NCBI GenBank assembly: GCA_036517755.1
Contig: DATDUH010000010.1
Location: 1 to 33,701, forward strand
Direction: 5' to 3'
From: Minisyncoccota bacterium
Lineage (GTDB): Bacteria > Patescibacteriota > Minisyncoccia > UBA6257 > Colwellbacteraceae
Length of the DNA stretch: 33,701 bases
In this document: positions 1,485 through 30,689 of the stretch, in pieces
Layout: each line of letters begins with the position of its first letter
Numbering within the stretch: the first letter of the stretch is position 1
Notes under the pieces: model-generated
What the model saw: the letters and a program-made list of their open reading frames with translations, nothing else
What the model was told of the DNA's origin: nothing
Database searches by the model: none
Program-made: the position numbers and the translations under genes

Positions 1485-1513
1485 ATTATAAAGGGCGAAC
1501 CCCATCTCCTCAA
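1485..1513 (-). promoter_or_regulatory. Candidate sigma70-type promoter for dnaE: -35 TTGAGG (1513-1508), 17-nt spacer, -10 TATAAT (1490-1485)
   Basis: Motifs read on the minus strand. The -10 ends only 9 nt before the dnaE ATG. The -35 lies inside the left boundary repeat of the island. Confidence 0.35.
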
Positions 1514-1558
1514 GAACGCCCTCCGCTCGGATAAATAAAGCCTTGAGATGTTCTCTAC
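1507..1558. repeat. Left boundary repeat block of the rnc-dnaE island
   Basis: Three segments are reverse complements of the right block: 1507-1517 tcctcaagaac (3094-3104), 1521-1530 ctccgctcgg (3079-3088) and 1531-1537 ataaata (3071-3077). 1546-1558 agatgttctctac is the exact reverse complement of 2933-2945. Confidence 0.8.
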
Positions 1559-1571
1559 AGAGATAGGGTTT

Positions 1572-1602
1572 TTGACATCGACTTTACAAGAATGTCTATA
1601 TC
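1572..1602 (+). promoter_or_regulatory. Candidate promoter of the high-GC micro-operon: -35 TTGACA (1572-1577), weak -10 (TCTATA 1595-1600 or TATATC 1597-1602)
   Basis: Perfect -35 hexamer and an AT-rich -10 region at 17-19 nt spacing, about 70 nt upstream of the first SD/ATG. It diverges from the dnaE promoter. Confidence 0.35.
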
Positions 1603-1670
1603 TGGCTTAATAATATTATTGAGGCAAAGGATCTCAACAGTACCTTGATTCATTGAGGGGAGGTGAGAAC

Positions 1671-1841
1671 ATGAGAGTAAACTCAAGGCCTACCGTCGTG
1701 GATCTGGCCGACTACAGACACAAGAAGGCCGAAGAGATCCGCGCCGAGGTCCGGAGGGCTCATCGAGGACATCGCCCTTCGGACAACTGTGGCTGCGTTA
1801 AACGCTTACATGAACGCTTGCGGATACTCGAAAGCCGGTGA
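1671..1841 (+). CDS. Hypothetical small basic protein (56 aa), ORF A of the high-GC cassette
   Basis: SD GGAGGTG at 1659-1665 lies 5 nt before ATG 1671. Sequence: MRVNSRPTVVDLADYRHKKAEEIRAEVRRAHRGHRPSDNCGCVKRLHERLRILESR. I recognise no family. Confidence 0.5.
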   Translation: MRVNSRPTVVDLADYRHKKAEEIRAEVRRAHRGHRPSDNCGCVKRLHERLRILESR

Positions 1842-1890
1842 GCCACATAGCGATGCGGCGAGAGCGGCTTCATTATCTGAGGAGGTGAAC

Positions 1891-2106
1891 ATGGCAATCT
1901 ACACCAGAAGTGATGAACTGGATCAGGCGGTGATCGCGGCTGTGCGCGACGCGGGTCATCCACTCCATCCCCGCGAGATCGTCGCTCGGGTCGAGAAGCA
2001 ACTCGAGACCAGAGAGCAGGACATCAGGTTCTGCATCATGGACCTGGAGAATCGCGGCCTGCTCGAGATGACCGCAGACCTGACAACGGGTCTGCCGTCG
2101 AGATGA
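1891..2106 (+). CDS. Hypothetical 71-aa protein, possibly a winged-helix DNA-binding fold, ORF B of the cassette
   Basis: SD GGAGGTG at 1881-1887 lies 3 nt before ATG 1891. Third-position GC is high. Sequence: MAIYTRSDELDQAVIAAVRDAGHPLHPREIVARVEKQLETREQDIRFCIMDLENRGLLEMT... The helix/turn/wing pattern is my reading only. Confidence 0.55.
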   Translation: MAIYTRSDELDQAVIAAVRDAGHPLHPREIVARVEKQLETREQDIRFCIMDLENRGLLEMTADLTTGLPSR

Positions 2107-2115
2107 GGAGGTGTT

Positions 2116-2316
2116 ATGTGCCAGTCGTGGTACGCTGAGCAGGATTTCGTCATCTGGATGGAGGCTCGAGCCGCGGAGCAAGGGCATCGTCCAGGGTGCA
2201 TCGGTATCCGCGCCCTCTGCAGCTGTCCAGGCATGGACAGGGATGTTGCGCCTGACGAAGTTCGGGCGACAAGGGCGGAAGACGTCGAGAGCGCCTCTGT
2301 GCTACGCGGCATGTAG
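2116..2316 (+). CDS. Hypothetical Cys-rich 66-aa protein, ORF C of the cassette
   Basis: SD GGAGGTG at 2107-2113 lies 2 nt before ATG 2116. By eye this frame has higher GC3 than the overlapping 2111 frame. No recognisable family. Confidence 0.45.
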   Translation: MCQSWYAEQDFVIWMEARAAEQGHRPGCIGIRALCSCPGMDRDVAPDEVRATRAEDVESASVLRGM

Positions 2317-2335
2317 ATGCAAAGGAGGTGAACTG

Positions 2336-2665
2336 ATGTACACGGAGACCTGTCCTAACTGCGGACACGAACAGTTCTGCGTGCCTGGCCAGTCGGTCAA
2401 CTGCTCCAAGTGCGGCTCCACGATCGGCGGCTACAGGAAGGAGCCACAGGAAGGAGTGAGAACGGTGAGCTGGAGTGAGCTACTCGGCCCGGAGATCGCG
2501 GTCATCGAGATCGAGCGTCTTGAAGACCAGCGGCTTCCGCGCATCCGTCTGCGCAAGGGCAAGGACTGGGGGACGGGCCTGATGGGTCCAGTCCTGTTCG
2601 AGCTCAGACTCAGCCGGCGTTGGCCCTGGATAGGGTTCGCTCGACCGGCCAGACAGCCATCATAA
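2336..2665 (+). CDS. Hypothetical zinc-ribbon protein (109 aa), ORF D of the cassette
   Basis: SD GGAGGTG at 2324-2330 lies 5 nt before ATG 2336. The N-terminus MYTETCPNCGHEQFCVPGQSVNCSKCGS has a CPNC-x13-CSKC motif. It is the in-frame downstream part of track ORF 2111..2665. Confidence 0.6.
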   Translation: MYTETCPNCGHEQFCVPGQSVNCSKCGSTIGGYRKEPQEGVRTVSWSELLGPEIAVIEIERLEDQRLPRIRLRKGKDWGTGLMGPVLFELRLSRRWPWIGFARPARQPS

Positions 2666-2666
2666 C

Positions 2667-2725
2667 GGCCCGTACGTGGAAGTGTGGGAAACCCACACGC
2701 TCCACGTGCGGGCCTTCCCATTTTT
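2667..2725 (+). terminator. Long intrinsic terminator hairpin closing the cassette
   Basis: ggcccgtacgtggaagtgtggg (2667-2688), loop aaa, then cccacacgctccacgtgcgggcc (2692-2714). The ~22-bp stem has one wobble and one bulge. It is followed by ttcccattttt and begins 2 nt after the ORF D stop. Confidence 0.75.
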
Positions 2726-2743
2726 AAACACCTATAGTTGATT

Positions 2744-2765
2744 GGCTAATTCGTGCGAATTGGCC
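2744..2765. repeat. 22-bp near-palindrome ggctaattcg-tg-cgaattggcc (one mismatch)
   Basis: Read directly. A related word, ctggctaatt, recurs at 2824-2833. Confidence 0.7.
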
Positions 2766-2779
2766 CATGGATAAAAAAC

Positions 2780-2813
2780 AATATTCTAATATTCTGCAGA
2801 ATATTAGAATATT
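2780..2813. repeat. Perfect 34-bp palindrome AATATTCTAATATTCTGCAGAATATTAGAATATT
   Basis: Its reverse complement is identical. It is built from a tandem AATATTCT pair and its mirror image around CTGCAG. Confidence 0.95.
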
Positions 2814-2840
2814 ATATTCAAGACTGGCTAATTACATATC

Positions 2841-2866
2841 TAGGTACGTACCTATTTACGTAAATA
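2841..2866. repeat. Two abutting perfect 14-bp palindromes, TAGGTACGTACCTA (2841-2854) and TATTTACGTAAATA (2853-2866)
   Basis: Both are self-complementary, both centre on TACGTA, and they overlap by 2 nt. Confidence 0.95.
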
Positions 2867-2876
2867 AATTGTAGTA

Positions 2877-2902
2877 CTGCTCAGTAGCATGCTACTGAGC
2901 AG
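2877..2902. repeat. Perfect 26-bp palindrome CTGCTCAGTAGCATGCTACTGAGCAG
   Basis: Its reverse complement is identical. Centre is GCATGC. Confidence 0.95.
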
Positions 2903-2920
2903 CGAGAACGAACTGGGCGA

Positions 2921-3113
2921 GAACTTATTTCCGTAGAGAACATCTTGAAACGAGGCAAATAAATAGTGAGTGAGGGTACTAAGAAGTAGAGGCGCGAACA
3001 TTGTCTGAATCCCGAGCAGACCGAGGTTGAGTTTGAGAGCGGCTCCACCCTTCTTTAGCCGAACGAACGCTATTTATTCCGAGCGGAGAGCCTGTTCTTG
3101 AGGAAATAAGTTC
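2921..3113. repeat. Right boundary repeat block: an imperfect ~45-nt inverted pair (2921-2966 and 3070-3113) around a 103-nt spacer
   Basis: Exact inverted matches: gaacttatttcc 2921-2932 with ggaaataagttc 3102-3113, and aataaatag 2958-2966 with ctatttatt 3070-3078. The middle parts are diverged and share agaaca. Confidence 0.8.
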
Positions 3114-3119
3114 GAGCTC

Positions 3120-3809
3120 CTATATCCGCCGCATTTCCCTCAAGAGGTTTTGGGCCGCTTCAGTTTCAGCTTCTTGCTTGGATTTGCCCTCACCTTCGGA
3201 CTTCAGTTCTTCACCGAAATAGAGGCCAACCCTAAAAATCCTTTCATGGGCAGGACCAGACTCTGAAAGCACTCGATAAGTCGGCGTTACCCTGTGTTCA
3301 CTTTGAGCCGACTCCTGGATTAGGCTTTTCGGATCTTTACCGCCTTCCTCAATTAGGGCCTCGACTCGAGAGAAAATAAAATCATTAATGAATTGTTTGG
3401 CTCTGGAGTATCCCTGGTCGAGATAAATAGCTCCGATTAGGGCTTCGACCGCATCAGCCGAGATGGTCTCCCTGGCTCGACCCGAGAAATTTTTAGTTTC
3501 CCCGCGAGATAAAAGAATTTTTTGATCGAGTTCAATTTCGGTAGCTAAGAGAGCCAGGGTTTTGGTATTGACGAGACCCGCTCGGTAGAGAGTTAGTTCT
3601 CCCTCCTCCTTAGTGGGGAAGTGATTAAAGAGCGCTTCGGTGACAGCTAGTTCTAAGACAGCATCGCCCAGAAACTCCAGGCGTTCATTGTTGCCATATT
3701 GCCATTTCGGATTTTCATTCAAATAAGAGCGGTGAGTCAGGGCTTCTTTAAGAAGACGAAGATCCCTAAAACTTAATTTGATTTTTTCCTGAAGAATCTC
3801 AAGCTCCAT
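3120..3809 (-). CDS. rnc: Ribonuclease III
   Basis: 229-aa ORF with the RNase III signature NERLEFLGDAVLELAV and a C-terminal dsRBD-like region. Confidence 0.95.
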   Translation of the reverse strand: MELEILQEKIKLSFRDLRLLKEALTHRSYLNENPKWQYGNNERLEFLGDAVLELAVTEALFNHFPTKEEGELTLYRAGLVNTKTLALLATEIELDQKILLSRGETKNFSGRARETISADAVEALIGAIYLDQGYSRAKQFINDFIFSRVEALIEEGGKDPKSLIQESAQSEHRVTPTYRVLSESGPAHERIFRVGLYFGEELKSEGEGKSKQEAETEAAQNLLREMRRI

Positions 3810-7878: not shown

Positions 7879-8535
7879 ATGACATTCCATATCATCACCC
7901 TTTTCCCCGAAACGATTAAGCCCTACCTCGACGAATCCGTGGTGGGGATCGCCCAGAAGCGGGGAGTGGTTAAGGTAAAATTTTATAGTCCCCGGGATTA
8001 TTCTCGGGACAAGCATAGAACCGTTGACGACCGGTCTTATGGCGGCGGGCCGGGGATGGTTATTCAGCTTGGGCCGGTAGTAAAAGCGGTTCAAGCCATA
8101 AAGTCGAAGATTAGAAACCAGAAATTGAAAATAATTCTTTTTACGCCGGCTGGGAAACAGTTCGATAACAAATATGCCGCCGCCTTAGCCAAAGACTATA
8201 AACACTTAATTCTTATCGCCGGCCGGTATGAAGGAGTTGATGCGAGATTGAAGAAGATATTTAAACCGGAAGAAATTTCCATCGGTCCCTATGTTTTAAC
8301 AGGCGGGGAACTGGCGGCAGCCGTTCTTGTTGACGCGATCTCTAGACAACTTCCGGGCGTGCTCGGTAAGGCAGAATCACTCGAAGAGAAACGTTTAGGC
8401 GTGGGCGTGCCGGTTTATACTCGGCCCGAGATTTTTGTTTATAAAGGCAAGAAGTACCGGGTGCCGAAAGTCCTCGTTTCAGGCAATCATGCCGAAATAG
8501 AGAAGTGGCGGCGCGACCATAGAAAAAGTCTTTGA
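7879..8535 (+). CDS. trmD: tRNA (guanine37-N1)-methyltransferase
   Basis: 218 aa. MTFHIITLFPE..., GRYEGVDARL, and a C-terminal HAEIEKWRR pattern typical of TrmD. Confidence 0.9.
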   Translation: MTFHIITLFPETIKPYLDESVVGIAQKRGVVKVKFYSPRDYSRDKHRTVDDRSYGGGPGMVIQLGPVVKAVQAIKSKIRNQKLKIILFTPAGKQFDNKYAAALAKDYKHLILIAGRYEGVDARLKKIFKPEEISIGPYVLTGGELAAAVLVDAISRQLPGVLGKAESLEEKRLGVGVPVYTRPEIFVYKGKKYRVPKVLVSGNHAEIEKWRRDHRKSL

Positions 8536-8561
8536 CTTTTCTCTTTTTGTAATGTAATTTT

Positions 8562-9329
8562 TTGACTGTGAAAGAGGCATCAGAAACATTAGAACTGGAG
8601 AATGATCAAGGGGAATCCTCGATTGATCCTAAAGATGCGGCTCTTTTTGAAGAGATGATGAGGGCCGGTGTTTTCTATGGCCGCTCTAAATCAAGGACCA
8701 ACCCCTTAATGAAGAATTACATCCAGACCACGAGGGCGGGTTTTGAGGTGATTGACCTCGGCGAAACTATCGCCGGGCTAAAAACCGCGGCCGCAGTCGT
8801 CAAGGGAATAATCCAAAACAAGGGGTTAATTCTTATGGTTGGCACGAGCCCGGCAGTTAGATCAGCCATTAAGGAGTTAGCCCTCAAGTTCAACTTGCCT
8901 CACGTCACCGAGCGTTGGCTTGGCGGCACTCTCACCAATTTCAAGGTGATTAGCGGGAGAATTAATTTCTTCAAGAAGCTAAAGGAGGCAGAAGTAAGCG
9001 GGGAGTGGGAGAAGTATTCTAAAAAAGAGAAAGTTAAGCTTTCGCGAGAGCTTGCCAAGCTCGAAAGACTTTTCGCTGGGATGTCGATCCTCGAACGGTT
9101 GCCCGCACTTGTTTTTATTGCTGATTTAACCGCAAACGGAATAGCCGCGAGAGAAGCGAAACGCAAGGGGATTCCGGTAGTGGCCTTCGTCAATACCGAC
9201 GCCGATCCCTCACTTGTTGATTATCCCATTCCGGCCAATGACCGTAATAGGAAGAGCGTTGAGCTCTTAATAAGAGGGCTTGATGAAGCCTTCACTATAG
9301 TTCCCCAAGAAGATGTTAAAGTCAGCTGA
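8562..9329 (+). CDS. rpsB: 30S ribosomal protein S2 (start codon uncertain; TTG 8562 per the track)
   Basis: Conserved core MMRAGVFYGRSKSRTNPLM..., ERWLGGTLTNF, IPVVAFVNTDADP. The N-terminal ~30 aa are not conserved, so the true start may be later. Confidence 0.85.
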   Translation: MTVKEASETLELENDQGESSIDPKDAALFEEMMRAGVFYGRSKSRTNPLMKNYIQTTRAGFEVIDLGETIAGLKTAAAVVKGIIQNKGLILMVGTSPAVRSAIKELALKFNLPHVTERWLGGTLTNFKVISGRINFFKKLKEAEVSGEWEKYSKKEKVKLSRELAKLERLFAGMSILERLPALVFIADLTANGIAAREAKRKGIPVVAFVNTDADPSLVDYPIPANDRNRKSVELLIRGLDEAFTIVPQEDVKVS

Positions 9330-9759
9330 CATTCAAGCGTTAAGAACCCAGACTGGAGCGGGGGTGGTGGATTGTAAGCATGCCTTGGAGGAAGCCGGGG
9401 GTAATGTCGATGAGGCGATTAAGATTTTGAAAGAGAGGGGGTTGGCTCGAGCCGCCTCGAGAGCCGAGCACGAGGCCGAAGCCGGTGTTATTGACGCCTA
9501 TATTCATCAGGATAAAATCGGTGTTTTGTTCGAGCTCAATTGCGAAACTGATTTTGTGGCCAGAACCAGTGAGTTTAAAGAATTAGCTCACAATCTTTCG
9601 ATGCAAATCGCGGCGATGAATCCCGAAAACGTTGAGGAATTTCTTGGGGGCAACTATATTAAAGATGAGACAAAAACCGTCGCCGATCTGATTAACGATG
9701 TTATTGCGAAAACCGGCGAGAATATTAAAATCGGAAGATTTATAAGATACGAGTTATGA
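9313..9759 (+). CDS. tsf: Elongation factor Ts, short form (148 aa)
   Basis: N-terminal UBA-like motif LRTQTGAGVVDCKHALEEAGGNVDEAIKILKERG, then ETDFVART. It overlaps the rpsB end by 17 nt. Confidence 0.85.
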   Translation: MLKSADIQALRTQTGAGVVDCKHALEEAGGNVDEAIKILKERGLARAASRAEHEAEAGVIDAYIHQDKIGVLFELNCETDFVARTSEFKELAHNLSMQIAAMNPENVEEFLGGNYIKDETKTVADLINDVIAKTGENIKIGRFIRYEL

Positions 9760-10010
9760 TTGATCTTTTTCTCGAACTGGCTTTAATGGTTTCCTTGGGC
9801 GTGATCGTCTATTTAATGGCGGTGGCTGTGCCTCGGGTAGGCGAAGAGGAGTCGGGCTCGACCAAAAGGAACGGTCGGACTAATAACTTGCCCCTTGAGG
9901 ATTTCGATGCTCTCCTGAAGAACCTAAGGGATAAGCTGTTGCGCCGGACCAAAATCGTGATAATGAAAATCGATAATTTCTTGAGCCGGAAGTTGAAGCG
10001 CGAAGAATAA
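9756..10010 (+). CDS. Hypothetical small membrane protein (84 aa)
   Basis: One N-terminal hydrophobic helix followed by a basic tail. 4-nt ATGA overlap with tsf. Confidence 0.5.
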   Translation: MIDLFLELALMVSLGVIVYLMAVAVPRVGEEESGSTKRNGRTNNLPLEDFDALLKNLRDKLLRRTKIVIMKIDNFLSRKLKREE

Positions 10011-10029
10011 TCGCTATAATAACGGAGGC

Positions 10030-10114
10030 GCGCAGGTGGTAGAGCGGTCAATTACACGAGACTGTAAATCTCGCGCCCTGACGGGCTACGGGGGTTCGAA
10101 TCCCTCCCTGCGCA
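10030..10114 (+). tRNA. tRNA-Tyr (anticodon GTA), type II with a long variable arm
   Basis: Hand-folded: acceptor gcgcagg/cctgcgc, anticodon stem cgaga/tctcg, loop ctGTAaa, variable stem gccc/gggc, T loop ttcgaat. Confidence 0.85.
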
Positions 10115-10121
10115 CCGGCTT

Positions 10122-10193
10122 GCCGTCCTAGCTCAACGGTAGAGCAACAGTTTTGTAAACTGTAGGTTCCGGGTTCAAGTCCCGGGGACGGCT
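10122..10193 (+). tRNA. tRNA-Thr (anticodon TGT)
   Basis: Acceptor gccgtcc/ggacggc, anticodon stem acagt/actgt, loop ttTGTaa, T arm ccggg-ttcaagt-cccgg. Confidence 0.85.
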
Positions 10194-10200
10194 CACTCGC

Positions 10201-10272
10201 GCCGGAGTAGTTCAGTGGCAGAACGCATTCTTGGTAAGAATGAGGCCGAGGGTCCGATTCCCTCCTCCGGCT
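10201..10272 (+). tRNA. tRNA-Thr (anticodon GGT)
   Basis: Acceptor gccggag/ctccggc, anticodon stem cattc/gaatg, loop ttGGTaa. The T loop reads tccgatt, which has C at the usually invariant U55 position. Confidence 0.8.
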
Positions 10273-10279
10273 CACAACG

Positions 10280-10456
10280 ATGGCTAAATCAATTTATTCG
10301 GAAAATTTAATCACTCTTCGATGTACCGTTTGCAAACGGAAGAATTACTATACCCGAAAAAATAAAAAGAAGGTGGAGAGGAAGTTAGAATACAAACGCT
10401 ACTGTAAGTGGTGCCGTAAGCATACCCCTCACAAAGAAGCCAAAACTAAGGGTTAA
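10280..10456 (+). CDS. rpmG: 50S ribosomal protein L33 (58 aa; below the ORF-track cutoff)
   Basis: MAKSIYSENLITLRCTVCKRKNYYTRKNKKKVERKLEYKRYCKWCRKHTPHKEAKTKG. L33 pattern with CxxC...CxxC and a K-rich core. Confidence 0.85.
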   Translation: MAKSIYSENLITLRCTVCKRKNYYTRKNKKKVERKLEYKRYCKWCRKHTPHKEAKTKG

Positions 10457-10460
10457 TTCC

Positions 10461-11093
10461 ATGCGCTTCCGGGATAGGACAGAGGCTGGTCGGCTCTTGG
10501 CCGAACTCCTCCGGCATTACGAAGGGAAAGAAGTAGTTGTTTATGCTCTGCCTCGCGGCGGTGTTGTCCTGGGATTTGAAATTGCCAAGCGCCTTCAGGC
10601 GCCGCTCGATCTTGTTATTACCCGGAAAATCGGCCACCCCTTCAATCCTGAATACGCTATTTGTGCCGTGGCTGAAGACGGTCACCTGGTTTGTAATGAA
10701 GCCGAGCGGGCCGGGGTTGATCCCGAATGGTTTAGAAAAGAAGTGGAGAAAGAAAAAGAAGAAGCCAAAAGGAGACGCGAGGCTTATCTAGGGAAAAGAG
10801 AAACGCCTGCGGCTCGAGGGAAAACAGCCATTATTGTTGATGATGGAATAGCCACTGGCCTTACTTTAAAATTAGCTATTCAAGAACTAAAACATAAAGA
10901 GCCGGTAAAAATCGTGGTGGCAGTGCCGGTAGCGCCTCGGGATGTAGCCGAAGAAATCCGAAAAGAGGTTGACGAGTTCGTGGCCCTTGATATCCCGACG
11001 GCCTATTTAGGCGCAGTTGGCGCTTATTACGATTATTTCCCCCAAGTAAGCGACGAAGAGGTGGTAGAAATGCTCGAGGAACCCGGGCATTGA
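10461..11093 (+). CDS. Phosphoribosyltransferase-family protein
   Basis: 210 aa. PRPP-binding motif TAIIVDDGIATGLT and an N-terminal FRDRTEAGRLLA pattern typical of COG1926-type putative PRTases. Confidence 0.65.
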   Translation: MRFRDRTEAGRLLAELLRHYEGKEVVVYALPRGGVVLGFEIAKRLQAPLDLVITRKIGHPFNPEYAICAVAEDGHLVCNEAERAGVDPEWFRKEVEKEKEEAKRRREAYLGKRETPAARGKTAIIVDDGIATGLTLKLAIQELKHKEPVKIVVAVPVAPRDVAEEIRKEVDEFVALDIPTAYLGAVGAYYDYFPQVSDEEVVEMLEEPGH

Positions 11094-28570: not shown

Positions 28571-29407
28571 ATGCTAAGCACAAAAGAGGGTTTTGATCTC
28601 GATGCCTTAATTAATGAGGCGTTAGATCAGGCCGATAAAAGAACCAGGCGGATTGTGAGCCATCGTTACGGGCTCGAGGCACCGGAGACAAAGACTCTGG
28701 CTAAGCTGGGGGATGAATATGGTTTGACGAGAGAGCGGGTCAGACAGATTGAAGCCGCTTTTCTTGATTCGATTAGGGCTAAAATTAAGGCTCACGAGGA
28801 AGCCGCCAAATTTCTTAAACTGGTGGAGCAGTATCTTGCCGATGTCGGGGGACTCCGGCGAAGTGATTTTTTGGCTCGTGACTTTTCCATTATTCTCGAC
28901 GATAAACGCGGCGAAGATTTGCTTTACAACCAACTTCATTTTCTGGCTAAAGTTTTGGAAGAGCCCCTAATTAATCGACCGAACGAAGACTGGCATCTTG
29001 TTTGGTACACCGAACCAAAAGTTTTGGAGAGAGCCGAAGAACTGGTTCGCCATCTTTTGAACCTGGATAAACACGATTTTAATCGATATCTTGCAATTGT
29101 CGTTCCTAAATTTAAATTACCCGAACCCTTGATCGTAAACTATTTGACTCTTTCGAAAAGATTTGCCACCGGCCCCTACGGCGATTTGGGGGCTGATCAC
29201 TGGGTCCACGTGGCGCCGAAAACAGTGCGCGATAAGGCCTACCTCGTGCTCGAGAAATCTTCGAACCCGCTTCACTTTACCGAAATTGCTCGTTTAGTTA
29301 ATAGTTTAGATGAGCGGAAAAGGGCTCCGGCGACGGTTCACAATGAGTTAATTCGTGATCCGCGGTTTGTTTTGGTAGGTCGGGGCACTTACGCCATCAA
29401 TGATTGA
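28571..29407 (+). CDS. DNA-binding protein with an N-terminal sigma-70 region-4-like HTH and a C-terminal HARE-HTH-like domain
   Basis: N-terminus RRIVSHRYGLEAPETKTLAKLGDEYGLTRERVRQIEAAFLDSIR matches the sigma region 4.2 pattern. C-terminus HFTEIARLVNSL...ATVHNELIRDPRFVLVGRGTYAI matches the HARE-HTH pattern seen in the RNAP delta subunit. Both calls rest on motif recall, not a search. Confidence 0.55.
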   Translation: MLSTKEGFDLDALINEALDQADKRTRRIVSHRYGLEAPETKTLAKLGDEYGLTRERVRQIEAAFLDSIRAKIKAHEEAAKFLKLVEQYLADVGGLRRSDFLARDFSIILDDKRGEDLLYNQLHFLAKVLEEPLINRPNEDWHLVWYTEPKVLERAEELVRHLLNLDKHDFNRYLAIVVPKFKLPEPLIVNYLTLSKRFATGPYGDLGADHWVHVAPKTVRDKAYLVLEKSSNPLHFTEIARLVNSLDERKRAPATVHNELIRDPRFVLVGRGTYAIND

Positions 29408-30677
29408 GGAACTTCTTGATTCAGCCTTCGGATCTGTCGCGTCGCTTTGGTGGTTTATTTTACCAGTGGCCGCGGCCGCGATTTTTCGCGAGTGGTGGCT
29501 CGTTGATATTACCCGGGAATACATTTCGCGGATCGAGTGGATTCTCTTAGAGATTAAAGTTCCGCGAGAGAACTTAAAATCAGCCAAGGCGATGGAGTAT
29601 GTTTTTGCCTCCATCTACGGCACTCACAGCGGCGGCATTAAGCGAAAAGATCGTTATTTTAAAGGCAAGGTCGAGGACTGGATGTCGTTTGAAATCGTGG
29701 GTGAAGCCTCGGGCGTTCATTTTTATGTTCGTCTTCCAGCCAGCTATCGGAAGCTCTTTGAAACGGCATTCTTTTCCCAGTATCCGGAGGCCGAGATTGA
29801 AGTAGTCCCTGATTATGTGAATAAACTTCCTCAGATTTTACCAAACGAGAAATACGATATCTTCGGCACTGATTTTGTCTTAGCCAAAGAGGATGCCTAC
29901 CCTATCAAGACTTATCCATCCTTCGAGGCTAATCTGGAAGAGGAGATGATCGATCCGATTGCGGCAATTGTTGAGTCGGTCGCAAACCTAAAAGCAGATG
30001 AGATGCTTCTCCTCCAACTTTTAGCCAGACCAGCCGGCGACGATTGGGTTAAAAAAGGGAAAGAAGAAGTCGATAAATTATCTGGTCGAAAAAAAGAAGA
30101 AAAGAAAAATCGAGTTGGCTCAATCAGCGAATTTCTGAAGAATTTTATAGCGGCGCCGGTTAAGGTGCCGGAATGGGGTGCTTCTAAAGAAGAAAAAACT
30201 GAGGCACCTCGGTTTACCCCTGGCCAGCAGGATGCCCTGAAGGCGGTTGAAAATAAATTATCTAAGCTTGGCTTCGAAGCCATCTTGAGAGTTATCTATA
30301 TTGACAACCGGGATGCTTTTACGAGCGATAATGTTTCAGCGGCCTTTGGCGCTATTCGGCAGTTTAGCACTCATAATCTGAATGCTTTAAAGCCCAATTT
30401 TAAAACAATGACCGCGGCCACGTTGGTGGGGATAATTTTCCGTAAAGAAAGGCTGGAGAAAAGAAAAAGGTTCCTCTATTGGCATTATCTTCATCGAGAT
30501 ATGCCCCAACCAGTGCCGATTCGATTCGGTTTGCAGCTAAAAACCGCGGTTTTGAGTGTTGAAGAACTGGCCACGGTTTACCACTTGCCGACCACTGCCG
30601 TGACGCCGGCGAGAGTAAGAGCGCTTGAGGCGAGAAAGGGTGAGGCGCCGATTAACCTTCCGGTCATAGAGGAGTAG
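29400..30677 (+). CDS. Hypothetical membrane-anchored protein (425 aa), probable partner of the downstream ATPase
   Basis: One N-terminal TM helix (SLWWFILPVAAAAIF), then a large soluble region with a K/E-rich linker. ATGATTGA overlap with the upstream gene and a 12-nt gap to the downstream ATPase. Confidence 0.6.
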   Translation: MIEELLDSAFGSVASLWWFILPVAAAAIFREWWLVDITREYISRIEWILLEIKVPRENLKSAKAMEYVFASIYGTHSGGIKRKDRYFKGKVEDWMSFEIVGEASGVHFYVRLPASYRKLFETAFFSQYPEAEIEVVPDYVNKLPQILPNEKYDIFGTDFVLAKEDAYPIKTYPSFEANLEEEMIDPIAAIVESVANLKADEMLLLQLLARPAGDDWVKKGKEEVDKLSGRKKEEKKNRVGSISEFLKNFIAAPVKVPEWGASKEEKTEAPRFTPGQQDALKAVENKLSKLGFEAILRVIYIDNRDAFTSDNVSAAFGAIRQFSTHNLNALKPNFKTMTAATLVGIIFRKERLEKRKRFLYWHYLHRDMPQPVPIRFGLQLKTAVLSVEELATVYHLPTTAVTPARVRALEARKGEAPINLPVIEE

Positions 30678-30689
30678 AATGGGGTGTAG

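What the first reader, a model, noticed from the sequence alone, without database searches (positions are those of the whole stretch)
1493..3115. Island is bracketed by nested repeat modules, with no recombinase gene inside
I verified four exact inverted matches by hand. (a) 1507-1517 tcctcaagaac pairs with 3094-3104. This match continues through ctccgctcgg (1521-1530 with 3079-3088) and ataaata (1531-1537 with 3071-3077), giving about 28 identical positions over ~35 with two small indels. (b) 1546-1558 agatgttctctac pairs with 2933-2945. (c) 2921-2932 gaacttatttcc pairs with 3102-3113. (d) 2958-2966 aataaatag pairs with 3070-3078. Read as modules, each end carries a convergent pair of a ~45-nt repeat: 1493-1540 plus 1538-1568 on the left, and 2921-2966 plus 3070-3113 on the right. 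Modules 1493-1540 and 2921-2966 are also in direct orientation around the cargo. This looks like either an insertion into a pre-existing hairpin (an rnc terminator or REP-like element) that duplicated an arm, or att/TIR-like ends of a non-autonomous element mobilised in trans.
Basis: seen in the sequence. Interest (0 to 1): 0.7.

Follow-up and report, generated by a model that had tools for sequence, protein, structure and literature searches.

The report
Inverted repeats framing a foreign islet
A 1.6-kb piece of foreign, GC-rich DNA sitting between two essential genes of an ultra-small (CPR) bacterium is framed by a real long inverted repeat and carries no enzyme to move itself, but nothing shows that the repeats are active transposon ends, so it is a modest curiosity.

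Summary
All four hand-found matches are exact. They form two collinear blocks of one long imperfect inverted repeat. Left end 1493-1572 is the reverse complement of right end 2915-3115, which holds about 125 extra bases. Both blocks beat every shuffle. The claimed direct repeat is not above chance.

The repeats sit at the edges of a 1.6-kb insertion between rnc and dnaE. The core has 60% GC against 47% for the host, and its four ORFs match no family or recombinase model. The closest relative (L001) has an empty 42-bp spacer, and four other Colwellbacteria sites lack the repeats. That argues against a host REP or terminator cluster. At least ten assemblies reproduce the junctions.

A second relative (L002) carries unrelated high-GC cargo at the same site. 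It shares only an 82-nt leader and the terminator, and has no repeats. No second copy, target-site duplication or transposase was found. One population variant has lost 46 nt of the right repeat.

Best reading (about 0.35): decaying inverted-repeat ends of a non-autonomous insertion vehicle. The left arm now overlaps the dnaE -35 box. A local inverted duplication is nearly as likely. Interest is modest.

The parts
1485..1513 (-). dnaE promoter-like site: TTGAGG (1512-1507), 17 nt, TATAAT (1490-1485). dnaE starts at 1475 on the minus strand. The -35 box lies inside the left repeat.
   Evidence: 10 of 12 consensus matches. The empty sites of L001 and L002 have TTGAGG/TTGAGC at the same spacing.
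1493..1540 (+). Its core 1504-1537 is the inverted copy of 3071-3107.
   Evidence: I7, I8; 33 identities over 37 columns, 0 of 1000 shuffles.
1546..1572 (-). Left inner repeat block (L2). 1546-1565 is the inverted copy of 2926-2945.
   Evidence: I2; 18/20, 0 of 2000 shuffles.
1583..1663 (+). Leader/regulatory region of the cargo operon. It is the only upstream sequence shared with the different island of L002 (82% over 82 nt). It also holds a minus-strand promoter-like site: TTGAGA (1637-1632), 16 nt, TATTAT (1615-1610).
1671..2665 (+). Cargo: four tightly packed ORFs, each preceded by GGAGG (GGAGGTG for three). They are 1671-1841 (56 aa), 1891-2106 (71 aa, weak winged-helix signal), 2116-2316 (66 aa) and 2336-2665 (109 aa, N-terminal zinc ribbon). 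GC is 0.57-0.63 and GC3 0.61-0.75, against host GC3 of 0.43-0.53.
2667..2725 (+). Cargo terminator: a 14-bp stem with a nested hairpin, followed by TTCCCATTTTT. It is shared with L002 (76% over 62 nt).
   Evidence: I9; z = -7.8.
2775..2902 (.). AT-rich run of palindromes: 2775-2818 (perfect 34-nt core 2780-2813), 2829-2866 and 2877-2902 (perfect 26 nt). On the minus strand the first is followed by T6 (2774-2769). That makes it a possible terminator for transcripts coming from rnc.
   Evidence: (I1, I4, I10), (z = -6.6).
2915..2966 (+). Right inner repeat block (R1). It is the partner of 1546-1565. It also pairs with R2 through 2921-2932 / 3102-3113 and 2958-2966 / 3070-3078.
   Evidence: (I2, I12).
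2967..3069 (.). Segment present only in the right arm. It forms the bulk of the roughly 125-nt difference between the two arms. Bases 3038-3083 are deleted in one population variant (L173).
   Evidence: (global alignment).
3070..3115 (-). Right outer repeat block (R2), partner of 1504-1537. It ends 4 nt before the rnc stop codon (3120-3122, minus strand). It carries a mirror-image TTGAGG (3098-3103), 17 nt, TATATC (3121-3126) that points into rnc antisense.
   Evidence: (I7, I8, I12), sequence.

Best explanation
The four matches are two collinear pieces of one long, imperfect terminal inverted repeat. Left arm 1493-1572 is the reverse complement of right arm 2915-3115. The right arm holds about 125 extra bases and folds back on itself.

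The arms lie at the two edges of about 1.6 kb of foreign DNA inserted between the rnc stop codon and the dnaE promoter. I read them as the decaying ends of a non-autonomous, foldback/MITE-like insertion vehicle. That vehicle either delivered or came to frame a promoter, four-ORF, terminator cassette.

The unit encodes no recombinase. Any past movement therefore needed a transposase supplied in trans. Alternatively the cassette spreads between relatives by homologous recombination through the conserved rnc and dnaE flanks after DNA uptake.

Today the left arm overlaps the -35 box of the essential dnaE gene. The right arm, with three further palindromes, forms a hairpin-rich spacer between the converging rnc and cargo transcripts.

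Shown here: the repeats and their significance, the foreign composition, the empty site in relatives, and the absence of recombinase signatures. Inferred: that the repeats were ever transposase substrates, the promoter role, and the insulating role.
For: - Both repeat blocks beat all shuffles and every same-geometry pair in the window.
- The blocks sit at the limits of the insertion. Homology with the closest relative L001 stops at window 3121 and resumes at 1513. L001 has only a 42-bp spacer.
- Four further empty or short spacers lack the repeats.
- The cargo differs from the host in composition: GC 0.57-0.63 and GC3 0.61-0.75 against 0.43-0.53. It is the only such region in 33.7 kb.
- The junctions recur at 99.8-100% identity in at least ten independent assemblies, so this is not a chimera.
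- The cargo ORFs match no recombinase or other family model. Protein searches with two of them, ORF4 and ORF2, found no credible homologue.
- The left arm holds TTGAGG 17 nt from the host TATAAT. Outward -35 boxes in IS terminal repeats that form fusion promoters with a host -10 are well documented (PMC9330008).
- Cargo framed by non-autonomous inverted-repeat elements is a known arrangement: TIME-COMPs (PMC4133298, PMC13367494) and a MITE-flanked integron (PMC3934969).
- The length difference between the arms and a clean 46-nt deletion inside R2 in one population (L173) fit relic ends under little constraint.
Against: - No target-site duplication abuts either plausible boundary (read).
- No second copy was found in the window, in 9 kb more of the same genome, in 1.3 Mb of relatives' loci, in IMG/VR, or in phage and plasmid collections.
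- No transposase or integrase lies among the genes of the window or of the further 9 kb of L184.
- The related island of L002 sits at the same site and shares leader and terminator, yet has none of these repeats.
- The shared leader (82%) and terminator (76%) diverge about as much as the host genes (78% genome-wide). This suggests the scaffold is old and vertically inherited, with the repeats added or lost later.
- The outer 20 nt of R2 (GTTCTTGAGGAAATAAGTTC) matches this genome's own dnaE promoter region at 17 of 21 positions. That is better than L001's promoter matches it, and it favours a local copy.
- The terminal 12 nt differ between the arms (8 of 13) while the interior is about 90% identical. 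This is the opposite of what transposase-bound ends usually show.
Confidence: 0.35

Rival explanations
1. Local inverted duplication. After the cassette was already in place, about 80 nt of the left junction was copied in inverted orientation to the right junction, or the reverse. The copied tract comprised 20 nt of dnaE promoter plus adjacent DNA. Template switching or fold-back repair could do this. The repeats never were mobile-element ends.
For: - The outer 20 nt of R2 matches the window's own promoter region 1497-1517 at 17 of 21 positions, including the -35 box. L001 and L002 have the same -35 (TTGAGG/TTGAGC) at the same spacing without any island.
- The repeats are single-copy.
- There is no target-site duplication.
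- L002 has the scaffold without the repeats.
- Leader and terminator divergence equals host divergence.
Against: - The homology of the window's -35/spacer with L001 is not significant on its own (12/15, p about 0.08), so the direction of copying is unknown.
- This model does not explain the extra 100-125 nt in the right arm or the 176-nt palindrome region.
- Inverted duplications of this kind are rare in bacteria (general knowledge).
Confidence: 0.25
2. Two separate copies of one MITE-like palindromic element, one of them internally deleted, inserted in opposite orientation on either side of an older promoter-cargo-terminator islet. Together they form a composite structure of the TIME-COMP type.
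For: - Each end has its own short terminal inverted repeat: right a perfect 12/12 (I12); left 10/11 (alignment).
- The right copy folds as a hairpin (z = -2.9).
- The core islet exists without them in L002.
- Composite structures bounded by MITEs are documented (PMC4133298, PMC3934969).
Against: - It needs two extra insertions within a 40-bp target.
- The terminal 12 nt of the two copies differ from each other.
- No target-site duplications and no other copies were found.
- The left hairpin is no better than chance.
- It does not account for the palindrome region 2727-2902.
Confidence: 0.15
3. The island inserted into the centre of a pre-existing long host palindrome, such as an rnc terminator or a REP-like element. 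The two halves of that palindrome now flank it.
For: - The nested geometry (A, B', cargo, B, A') is exactly what an insertion into the centre of a palindrome would give.
- The right arm lies 4 nt after the rnc stop codon.
Against: - Five orthologous spacers without cargo show no such palindrome.
- No other copy was found anywhere searched.
- L002 has the same scaffold at the same site without it.
Confidence: 0.1
4. The repeats are kept for a function rather than as mobility scars. Candidates are hairpins that insulate or terminate converging and diverging transcription around the cassette, or paired binding sites for the cassette's winged-helix protein.
For: - The 358 nt downstream of rnc fold into four successive hairpins (RNA z = -5.6).
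- The outer stems differ between the left and right ends yet stay complementary within each end.
- All four 21-mers have the form GTTC, 12-14 nt, GTT(C/T).
Against: - A 46-nt deletion inside R2 is tolerated in a natural population.
- The left hairpin is not stable.
- L002 does without the repeats.
- There are only four sites in one genome, so covariation is anecdotal.
Confidence: 0.1

Closest known systems
MITE-bounded or TIR-bounded non-autonomous cargo elements (TIME-COMPs, MITE-flanked integrons; PMC4133298, PMC13367494, PMC3934969)
   Same: Inverted repeats frame a few accessory genes. No transposase lies inside. The site is empty in a close relative.
   Different: No target-site duplication was found, and only one copy. 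The two arms differ in length (about 80 against 201 nt) and differ most at their very tips. No cognate transposase or parent element is known. The host is a CPR bacterium and the cargo is orphan.
IS-borne outward -35 boxes that form fusion promoters with a host -10 (PMC9330008)
   Same: The left arm carries TTGAGG exactly 17 nt from the TATAAT in front of dnaE. The right arm carries the mirror image.
   Different: The same -35 hexamer exists at the empty site of L001, so the box may be host DNA that was copied into the repeat rather than brought in by it. No transcription data are available.
Moron-like or variable-spot cassettes (promoter, gene, terminator) exchanged between related genomes by homologous recombination (my own knowledge of phage morons and genomic islets)
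   Same: The window and L002 share an 82-nt leader and a terminator at the same chromosomal site. Between them lie unrelated GC-rich genes. The genome encodes ComEC.
   Different: This lies on a chromosome between two housekeeping genes, not in a prophage. Only two filled examples are known. The exchange mechanism has not been shown.
IS200/IS605-derived palindrome-associated elements (PATEs)
   Same: Hairpin-forming ends and no transposase inside.
   Different: PATEs lack terminal inverted repeats, and their end hairpins lie on one strand. Here the ends are inverted copies of each other, and the left hairpin is not significant.

Membership tests
Non-autonomous TIR transposon / MITE-bounded composite | Terminal inverted repeats at both ends of the inserted DNA | tested here: met
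   Two collinear inverted blocks: 33 identities over 37 columns, and 18/20. They beat 0 of 1000 and 0 of 2000 shuffles.
Non-autonomous TIR transposon / MITE-bounded composite | Short direct target-site duplication abutting the repeats | tested here: not met
   The flanks read ...TTATAAAGGGC|GAAC and GTTC|GAGCTCCTATAT. No matching direct repeat abuts either plausible boundary.
Non-autonomous TIR transposon / MITE-bounded composite | Further copies at other sites in the genome or in other genomes | tested here: inconclusive
   None was found in the 33.7-kb window, 9 kb more of the same genome, 1.3 Mb of relatives, IMG/VR, phages or plasmids.
Non-autonomous TIR transposon / MITE-bounded composite | No transposase inside; a cognate transposase elsewhere | tested here: inconclusive
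   None inside. None in about 43 kb of the genome. The rest of the genome was not seen.
Non-autonomous TIR transposon / MITE-bounded composite | Empty site in a close relative | tested here: met
   L001 (87% DNA identity) has a 42-bp rnc-dnaE spacer.
Integrase-type island with attL/attR | Direct repeats at the two junctions | tested here: not met
   Direct alignment of the two ends scores 14 against 15.6 for shuffles.
Integrase-type island with attL/attR | Integrase gene in or beside the island; tRNA or tmRNA target | tested here: not met
   No integrase. The nearest tRNA is 7 kb away.
Host REP / terminator hairpin cluster | Present at the orthologous site of relatives without the cargo, or repeated around the genome | tested here: not met
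   Absent from L001, L003, L084, L178/L179 and L181, and from all other DNA fetched.
IS200/IS605-derived PATE | Sub-terminal hairpins on one strand, no terminal inverted repeats | tested here: not met
   The ends are inverted copies of each other. Left hairpin z = -0.87, right z = -2.9.
Integron gene cassette | Promoterless ORF followed by attC, next to intI/attI | tested here: not met
   The cassette has its own leader and an intrinsic terminator. No intI lies in the window.
Tn7-like element downstream of a conserved gene | TGT...ACA termini, arrays of about 22-bp TnsB sites in direct order, 5-bp duplication | tested here: not met
   The termini read GAAC...GTTC. The two 21-mers in each end are inverted relative to each other. 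There is no duplication.

The most novel reading that the evidence does not exclude
The rnc-dnaE spacer of this Colwellbacteria clade is a recombinase-free cassette-exchange site. A conserved leader and terminator act as homology arms. Between them, unrelated GC-rich orphan operons from an unknown donor pool are swapped. The foldback repeats of the window belong to a so far undescribed CPR non-autonomous element that targets the few bases between an essential gene's stop codon and the next promoter, and that replaces the -35 box it displaces.
Probability: 0.15. Interest if true: 0.6.

Novelty: new member of a known kind. Interest (0 to 1): 0.35.

Why it matters
Ultra-small CPR bacteria have streamlined genomes, yet they carry many horizontally acquired islands (PMC12455944). 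How small islets enter without their own recombinase is mostly unknown.

This locus gives a clean three-state comparison:
- an empty site (L001);
- a cassette framed by inverted repeats (the window);
- a different cassette on the same leader and terminator scaffold without repeats (L002).

If the repeats prove to be ends of a mobile element, this would be a rare example of a cargo-carrying non-autonomous element in CPR, one that rebuilds the promoter of an essential gene. If they are a local duplication, the locus is simply a variable spot and the finding is ordinary.

Tried and rejected
- **Assembly chimera.** Rejected. The same junctions occur in at least ten assemblies from several projects.
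- **Known RNA family or tRNA target.** Nothing in Rfam at gathering or E-value thresholds apart from distant tRNAs. A palindrome gave a spurious miRNA hit.
- **Function of the cargo.**
  - Pfam, PHROGs, PADLOC and NCBIfam give only sub-threshold zinc-ribbon and winged-helix hints.
  - ORF4 has one 98%-identical hit, which is the same island.
  - ORF2 has no real homologue among 1.8 billion representatives.
  - AlphaFold of ORF4 is confident only for a zinc ribbon at residues 1-30, so no fold search was run.
- **Source of the island.** No match in the phage or plasmid collections. Four IMG/VR pattern scans found nothing: leader, outer repeat and two palindromes.
- **Homologues of the L002 cargo protein.** They sit in other CPR genomes at other sites, for example between topA and dprA. 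They do not share the leader, the terminator or the repeats.
- **Population SNPs as a test of compensatory change.** The mismatch clusters lie at contig ends and look like artefacts, such as a poly-G run. Only the 46-nt deletion of L173 is clean.
- **Target-site duplication.** TATA-containing strings on both flanks are just the rnc stop region and the -10 box, which are also present in the empty site of L001.
- **Xer/dif, integron attC and Tn7-like ends.** All were considered and do not fit (see the membership table).
Full report
**Setting.** The window is a housekeeping stretch of a CPR/Patescibacteria genome. It holds ribosomal proteins, DnaK/DnaJ/GrpE, SecDF, DnaB, MraZ/MraW and EF-P. The closest named relatives are Candidatus Colwellbacteria MAGs. 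dnaE starts at 1475 and rnc ends at 3120, both on the minus strand. The 1,644 bp between them hold the finding.

**The observation.** All four inverted matches are exact at the stated coordinates (one search pairs I7, I8, I2, I12). Put together, they are two collinear blocks of a single inverted repeat.
- Block 1: 1504-1537 with 3071-3107, 33 identities over 37 columns with two small indels.
- Block 2: 1546-1565 with 2926-2945, 18 of 20.

A global alignment shows that left end 1493-1572 is the reverse complement of right end 2915-3115. The right end has about 125 extra bases. Block 1 scores 47 against 15.9 +/- 2.4 in shuffles (0 of 1000). Block 2 scores 30 against 13.9 +/- 2.2 (0 of 2000). The best of 192 same-geometry pairs elsewhere in the window scores 27.

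The idea that all four modules are copies of one roughly 45-nt unit is weaker.
- The two right-hand modules pair into a long hairpin, with a 12-bp perfect outer stem and an 11-bp inner stem. The DNA fold has z = -2.9, but the alignment test gives only p of about 0.06.
- The left-hand pair folds no better than shuffles (z = -0.87).
- The claimed direct-repeat relation of 1493-1540 and 2921-2966 is not above chance.

**Anatomy between the repeats.**
- A leader, 1583-1663.
- Four tightly spaced plus-strand ORFs, 1671-2665, each behind a GGAGG-type ribosome-binding site (GGAGGTG for three of them).
- A strong terminator hairpin, 2667-2725 (z = -7.8).
- An AT-rich run of palindromes, 2775-2902, including perfect 34-nt and 26-nt palindromes (z = -6.6).

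The ORFs have GC 0.57-0.63 and GC3 0.61-0.75. Neighbouring host genes have GC3 0.43-0.53. This is the only stretch above 0.56 GC in the window. None of the four proteins hits any family significantly in Pfam, PHROGs, PADLOC or NCBIfam. There are only sub-threshold zinc-ribbon and winged-helix hints. ORF4 and ORF2 have no real homologues in billions of proteins. 'No recombinase inside' therefore stands as far as sequence methods reach.

**Is it real?** The same 1.6 kb, with the same junctions, recurs at 99.8-100% identity in at least ten contigs from independent assemblies (ENA, JGI). One of them (L173) is otherwise identical but lacks 46 nt, window 3038-3083. The deletion lies between GAG(A)GCGG microhomologies and removes the inner part of the right outer module. 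Other apparent differences sit at contig ends and look like artefacts.

**Orthologous sites.** rnc followed by dnaE is conserved only in the closest clade.
- L001 is 86.8% identical in DNA to the window. Its spacer is 42 bp: TAA GGGTTGAGGTAAGGGGGTGGCCCGGC TTATAATGAGTCTGGA ATG. This is the empty site.
- L003, L084, L178/L179 and L181 (Rnc 68-70%) have spacers of 47-180 bp without the repeats.
- L085, L180 and L182/L183 carry a pilin-like gene of host-like GC on the opposite strand at this place.
- L002 (78% DNA identity) has a different GC-rich insertion of about 1.2 kb. It encodes a 56-aa Cys-rich protein and a 273-aa protein.

The L002 island shares only two pieces with the window's island: the leader (window 1583-1663, 82% over 82 nt) and the terminator (2665-2726, 76% over 62 nt). 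L002 has none of the four modules. In place of the left pair it has a perfect 14-bp-stem hairpin.

By whole-flank identity the tree is (window, L001), L002. The shared leader and terminator are about as diverged as the host genes. This suggests an old scaffold whose cargo was replaced. L001 then either lost the scaffold or never had it.

**Are the repeats found elsewhere?** No.
- Not in the rest of the window.
- Not in 9 kb more of the same genome (L184).
- Not in 1.3 Mb of fetched relatives' loci.
- Not in IMG/VR.
- Not in the phage or plasmid collections.

No transposase or integrase lies in about 43 kb of this genome. No direct duplication abuts the repeat ends.

**The promoter overlap.** The left outer module contains TTGAGG (1512-1507), 17 nt from TATAAT (1490-1485), in front of dnaE. 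L001 and L002 have TTGAGG and TTGAGC at the same spacing without the repeats. BLAST homology with L001 resumes at 1513, inside the repeat. On its own, however, the similarity upstream of the -10 box is only 12/15, with p of about 0.08.

The right outer module carries the mirror image: TTGAGG 3098-3103, then 17 nt, then TATATC in the last codons of rnc. Its outer 20 nt matches the window's promoter region at 17 of 21 positions. There are two ways to read this.
- The repeat end brought an outward -35 box that now serves dnaE, as IS ends often do (PMC9330008).
- A piece of host promoter was copied in inverted orientation to the other junction.

I cannot decide between these with the data at hand.

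**Interpretation.** I give about 0.35 to relic ends of a non-autonomous foldback/MITE-like vehicle, either mobilised in trans or now immobile. This is the one-event explanation for repeats that coincide with the limits of foreign DNA at a site that is empty in the sister genome. Cargo framed by such elements is a known arrangement (PMC4133298, PMC13367494, PMC3934969).

The other readings, with my estimates:
- A purely local inverted duplication, 0.25.
- Two MITE-like copies flanking an older islet, 0.15.
- Insertion into a pre-existing host palindrome, 0.10. The empty sites speak against it.
- Functional hairpins or binding sites, 0.10. This is not exclusive of the others. The 358 nt downstream of rnc fold into four hairpins with RNA z = -5.6, but a natural 46-nt deletion is tolerated.
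- An att-site reading is rejected, because the direct repeats are not significant and there is no integrase and no tRNA.

**Spread between relatives.** Recombinase-free spread could happen by DNA uptake and homologous recombination through rnc and dnaE, or through the shared leader and terminator. This is plausible because the genome encodes ComEC. It has not been shown.

**Verdict.** Mobility of the repeats is unproven. Genomic islands are common in Patescibacteria (PMC12455944). The more interesting point is the shared leader/terminator scaffold carrying unrelated GC-rich orphan cargo in two species. Interest is 0.35. If it is an element at all, it is a new member of a known kind.

Noticed in passing
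L002 6691-7906 (Candidatus Colwellbacteria JACOXB010000010.1): A different GC-rich islet (0.59 against 0.47) at the same rnc-dnaE site. It shares only the 82-nt leader and the terminator with the window's islet. Homology breaks right at the ribosome-binding site and at the foot of the terminator, as if the cargo had been swapped between fixed ends.
   Followed up: yes
L002 6751-7572 (protein P0002) and homologues P0003-P0073: The 273-aa cargo protein of L002 belongs to an unannotated family of at least 72 clusters; the members whose source records are named come from Patescibacteria. Invariant motifs are FGGTDE..PFLV, RQGDIF, FGTRH and APDH. The gene is often preceded by a small zinc-ribbon or Cys-rich ORF. 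The AlphaFold model is confident (pLDDT 84, pTM 0.82), yet no PDB fold matches at E <= 0.001.
   Followed up: partly
window 3038-3083 (variant in L173, ERZ28563641 scaffold_84449): A clean 46-nt deletion polymorphism inside the right repeat, between GAG(A)GCGG microhomologies, in an otherwise identical 3.7-kb contig. Two other contigs break at 3039 and 3081, as expected for an assembly-graph bubble there.
   Followed up: yes
window 2744-2902: Four different palindromes in 160 nt: 2744-2765 (seen by eye), 2775-2818 with a perfect 34-nt core, 2829-2866, and a perfect 26-mer at 2877-2902. The second is followed on the minus strand by T6. It may terminate rnc transcripts back to back with the cargo terminator. 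An origin-like or operator-like role was not excluded.
   Followed up: partly
L085 4661-5827; L180 2205-4434; L182/L183 from 4210: In the 68-70% Rnc clade the same spacer holds an opposite-strand gene for a 388-aa protein with a prepilin-type N-terminus (FTLIELIVY). Its GC is host-like. The rnc-dnaE gap is therefore a recurrent variable spot.
   Followed up: partly
window 3098-3126, plus strand: A mirror-image promoter-like site (TTGAGG, 17 nt, TATATC) in the right repeat, pointing antisense into the 3' end of rnc.
   Followed up: no
L002 7945-11041: dnaE of L002 is split into two overlapping ORFs, 7945-8499 and 8441-11041. This is a frameshift or an assembly error near 8440-8500.
   Followed up: no
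window 28571-32144: A sigma-70 region 4/HARE-HTH protein, a 425-aa protein (DUF8128 in the precomputed annotation) and a TrwB/VirD4-like coupling ATPase sit together among housekeeping genes.
   Followed up: no
L166/L167 3390-5045 (Candidatus Zambryskibacteria): A homologue of the L002 cargo pair (71-aa zinc-ribbon ORF plus 217-aa protein, then a terminator) lies between topA and dprA. Its local GC is 0.55 against 0.45. An IS200-type Y1 transposase gene lies 3 kb away.
   Followed up: partly
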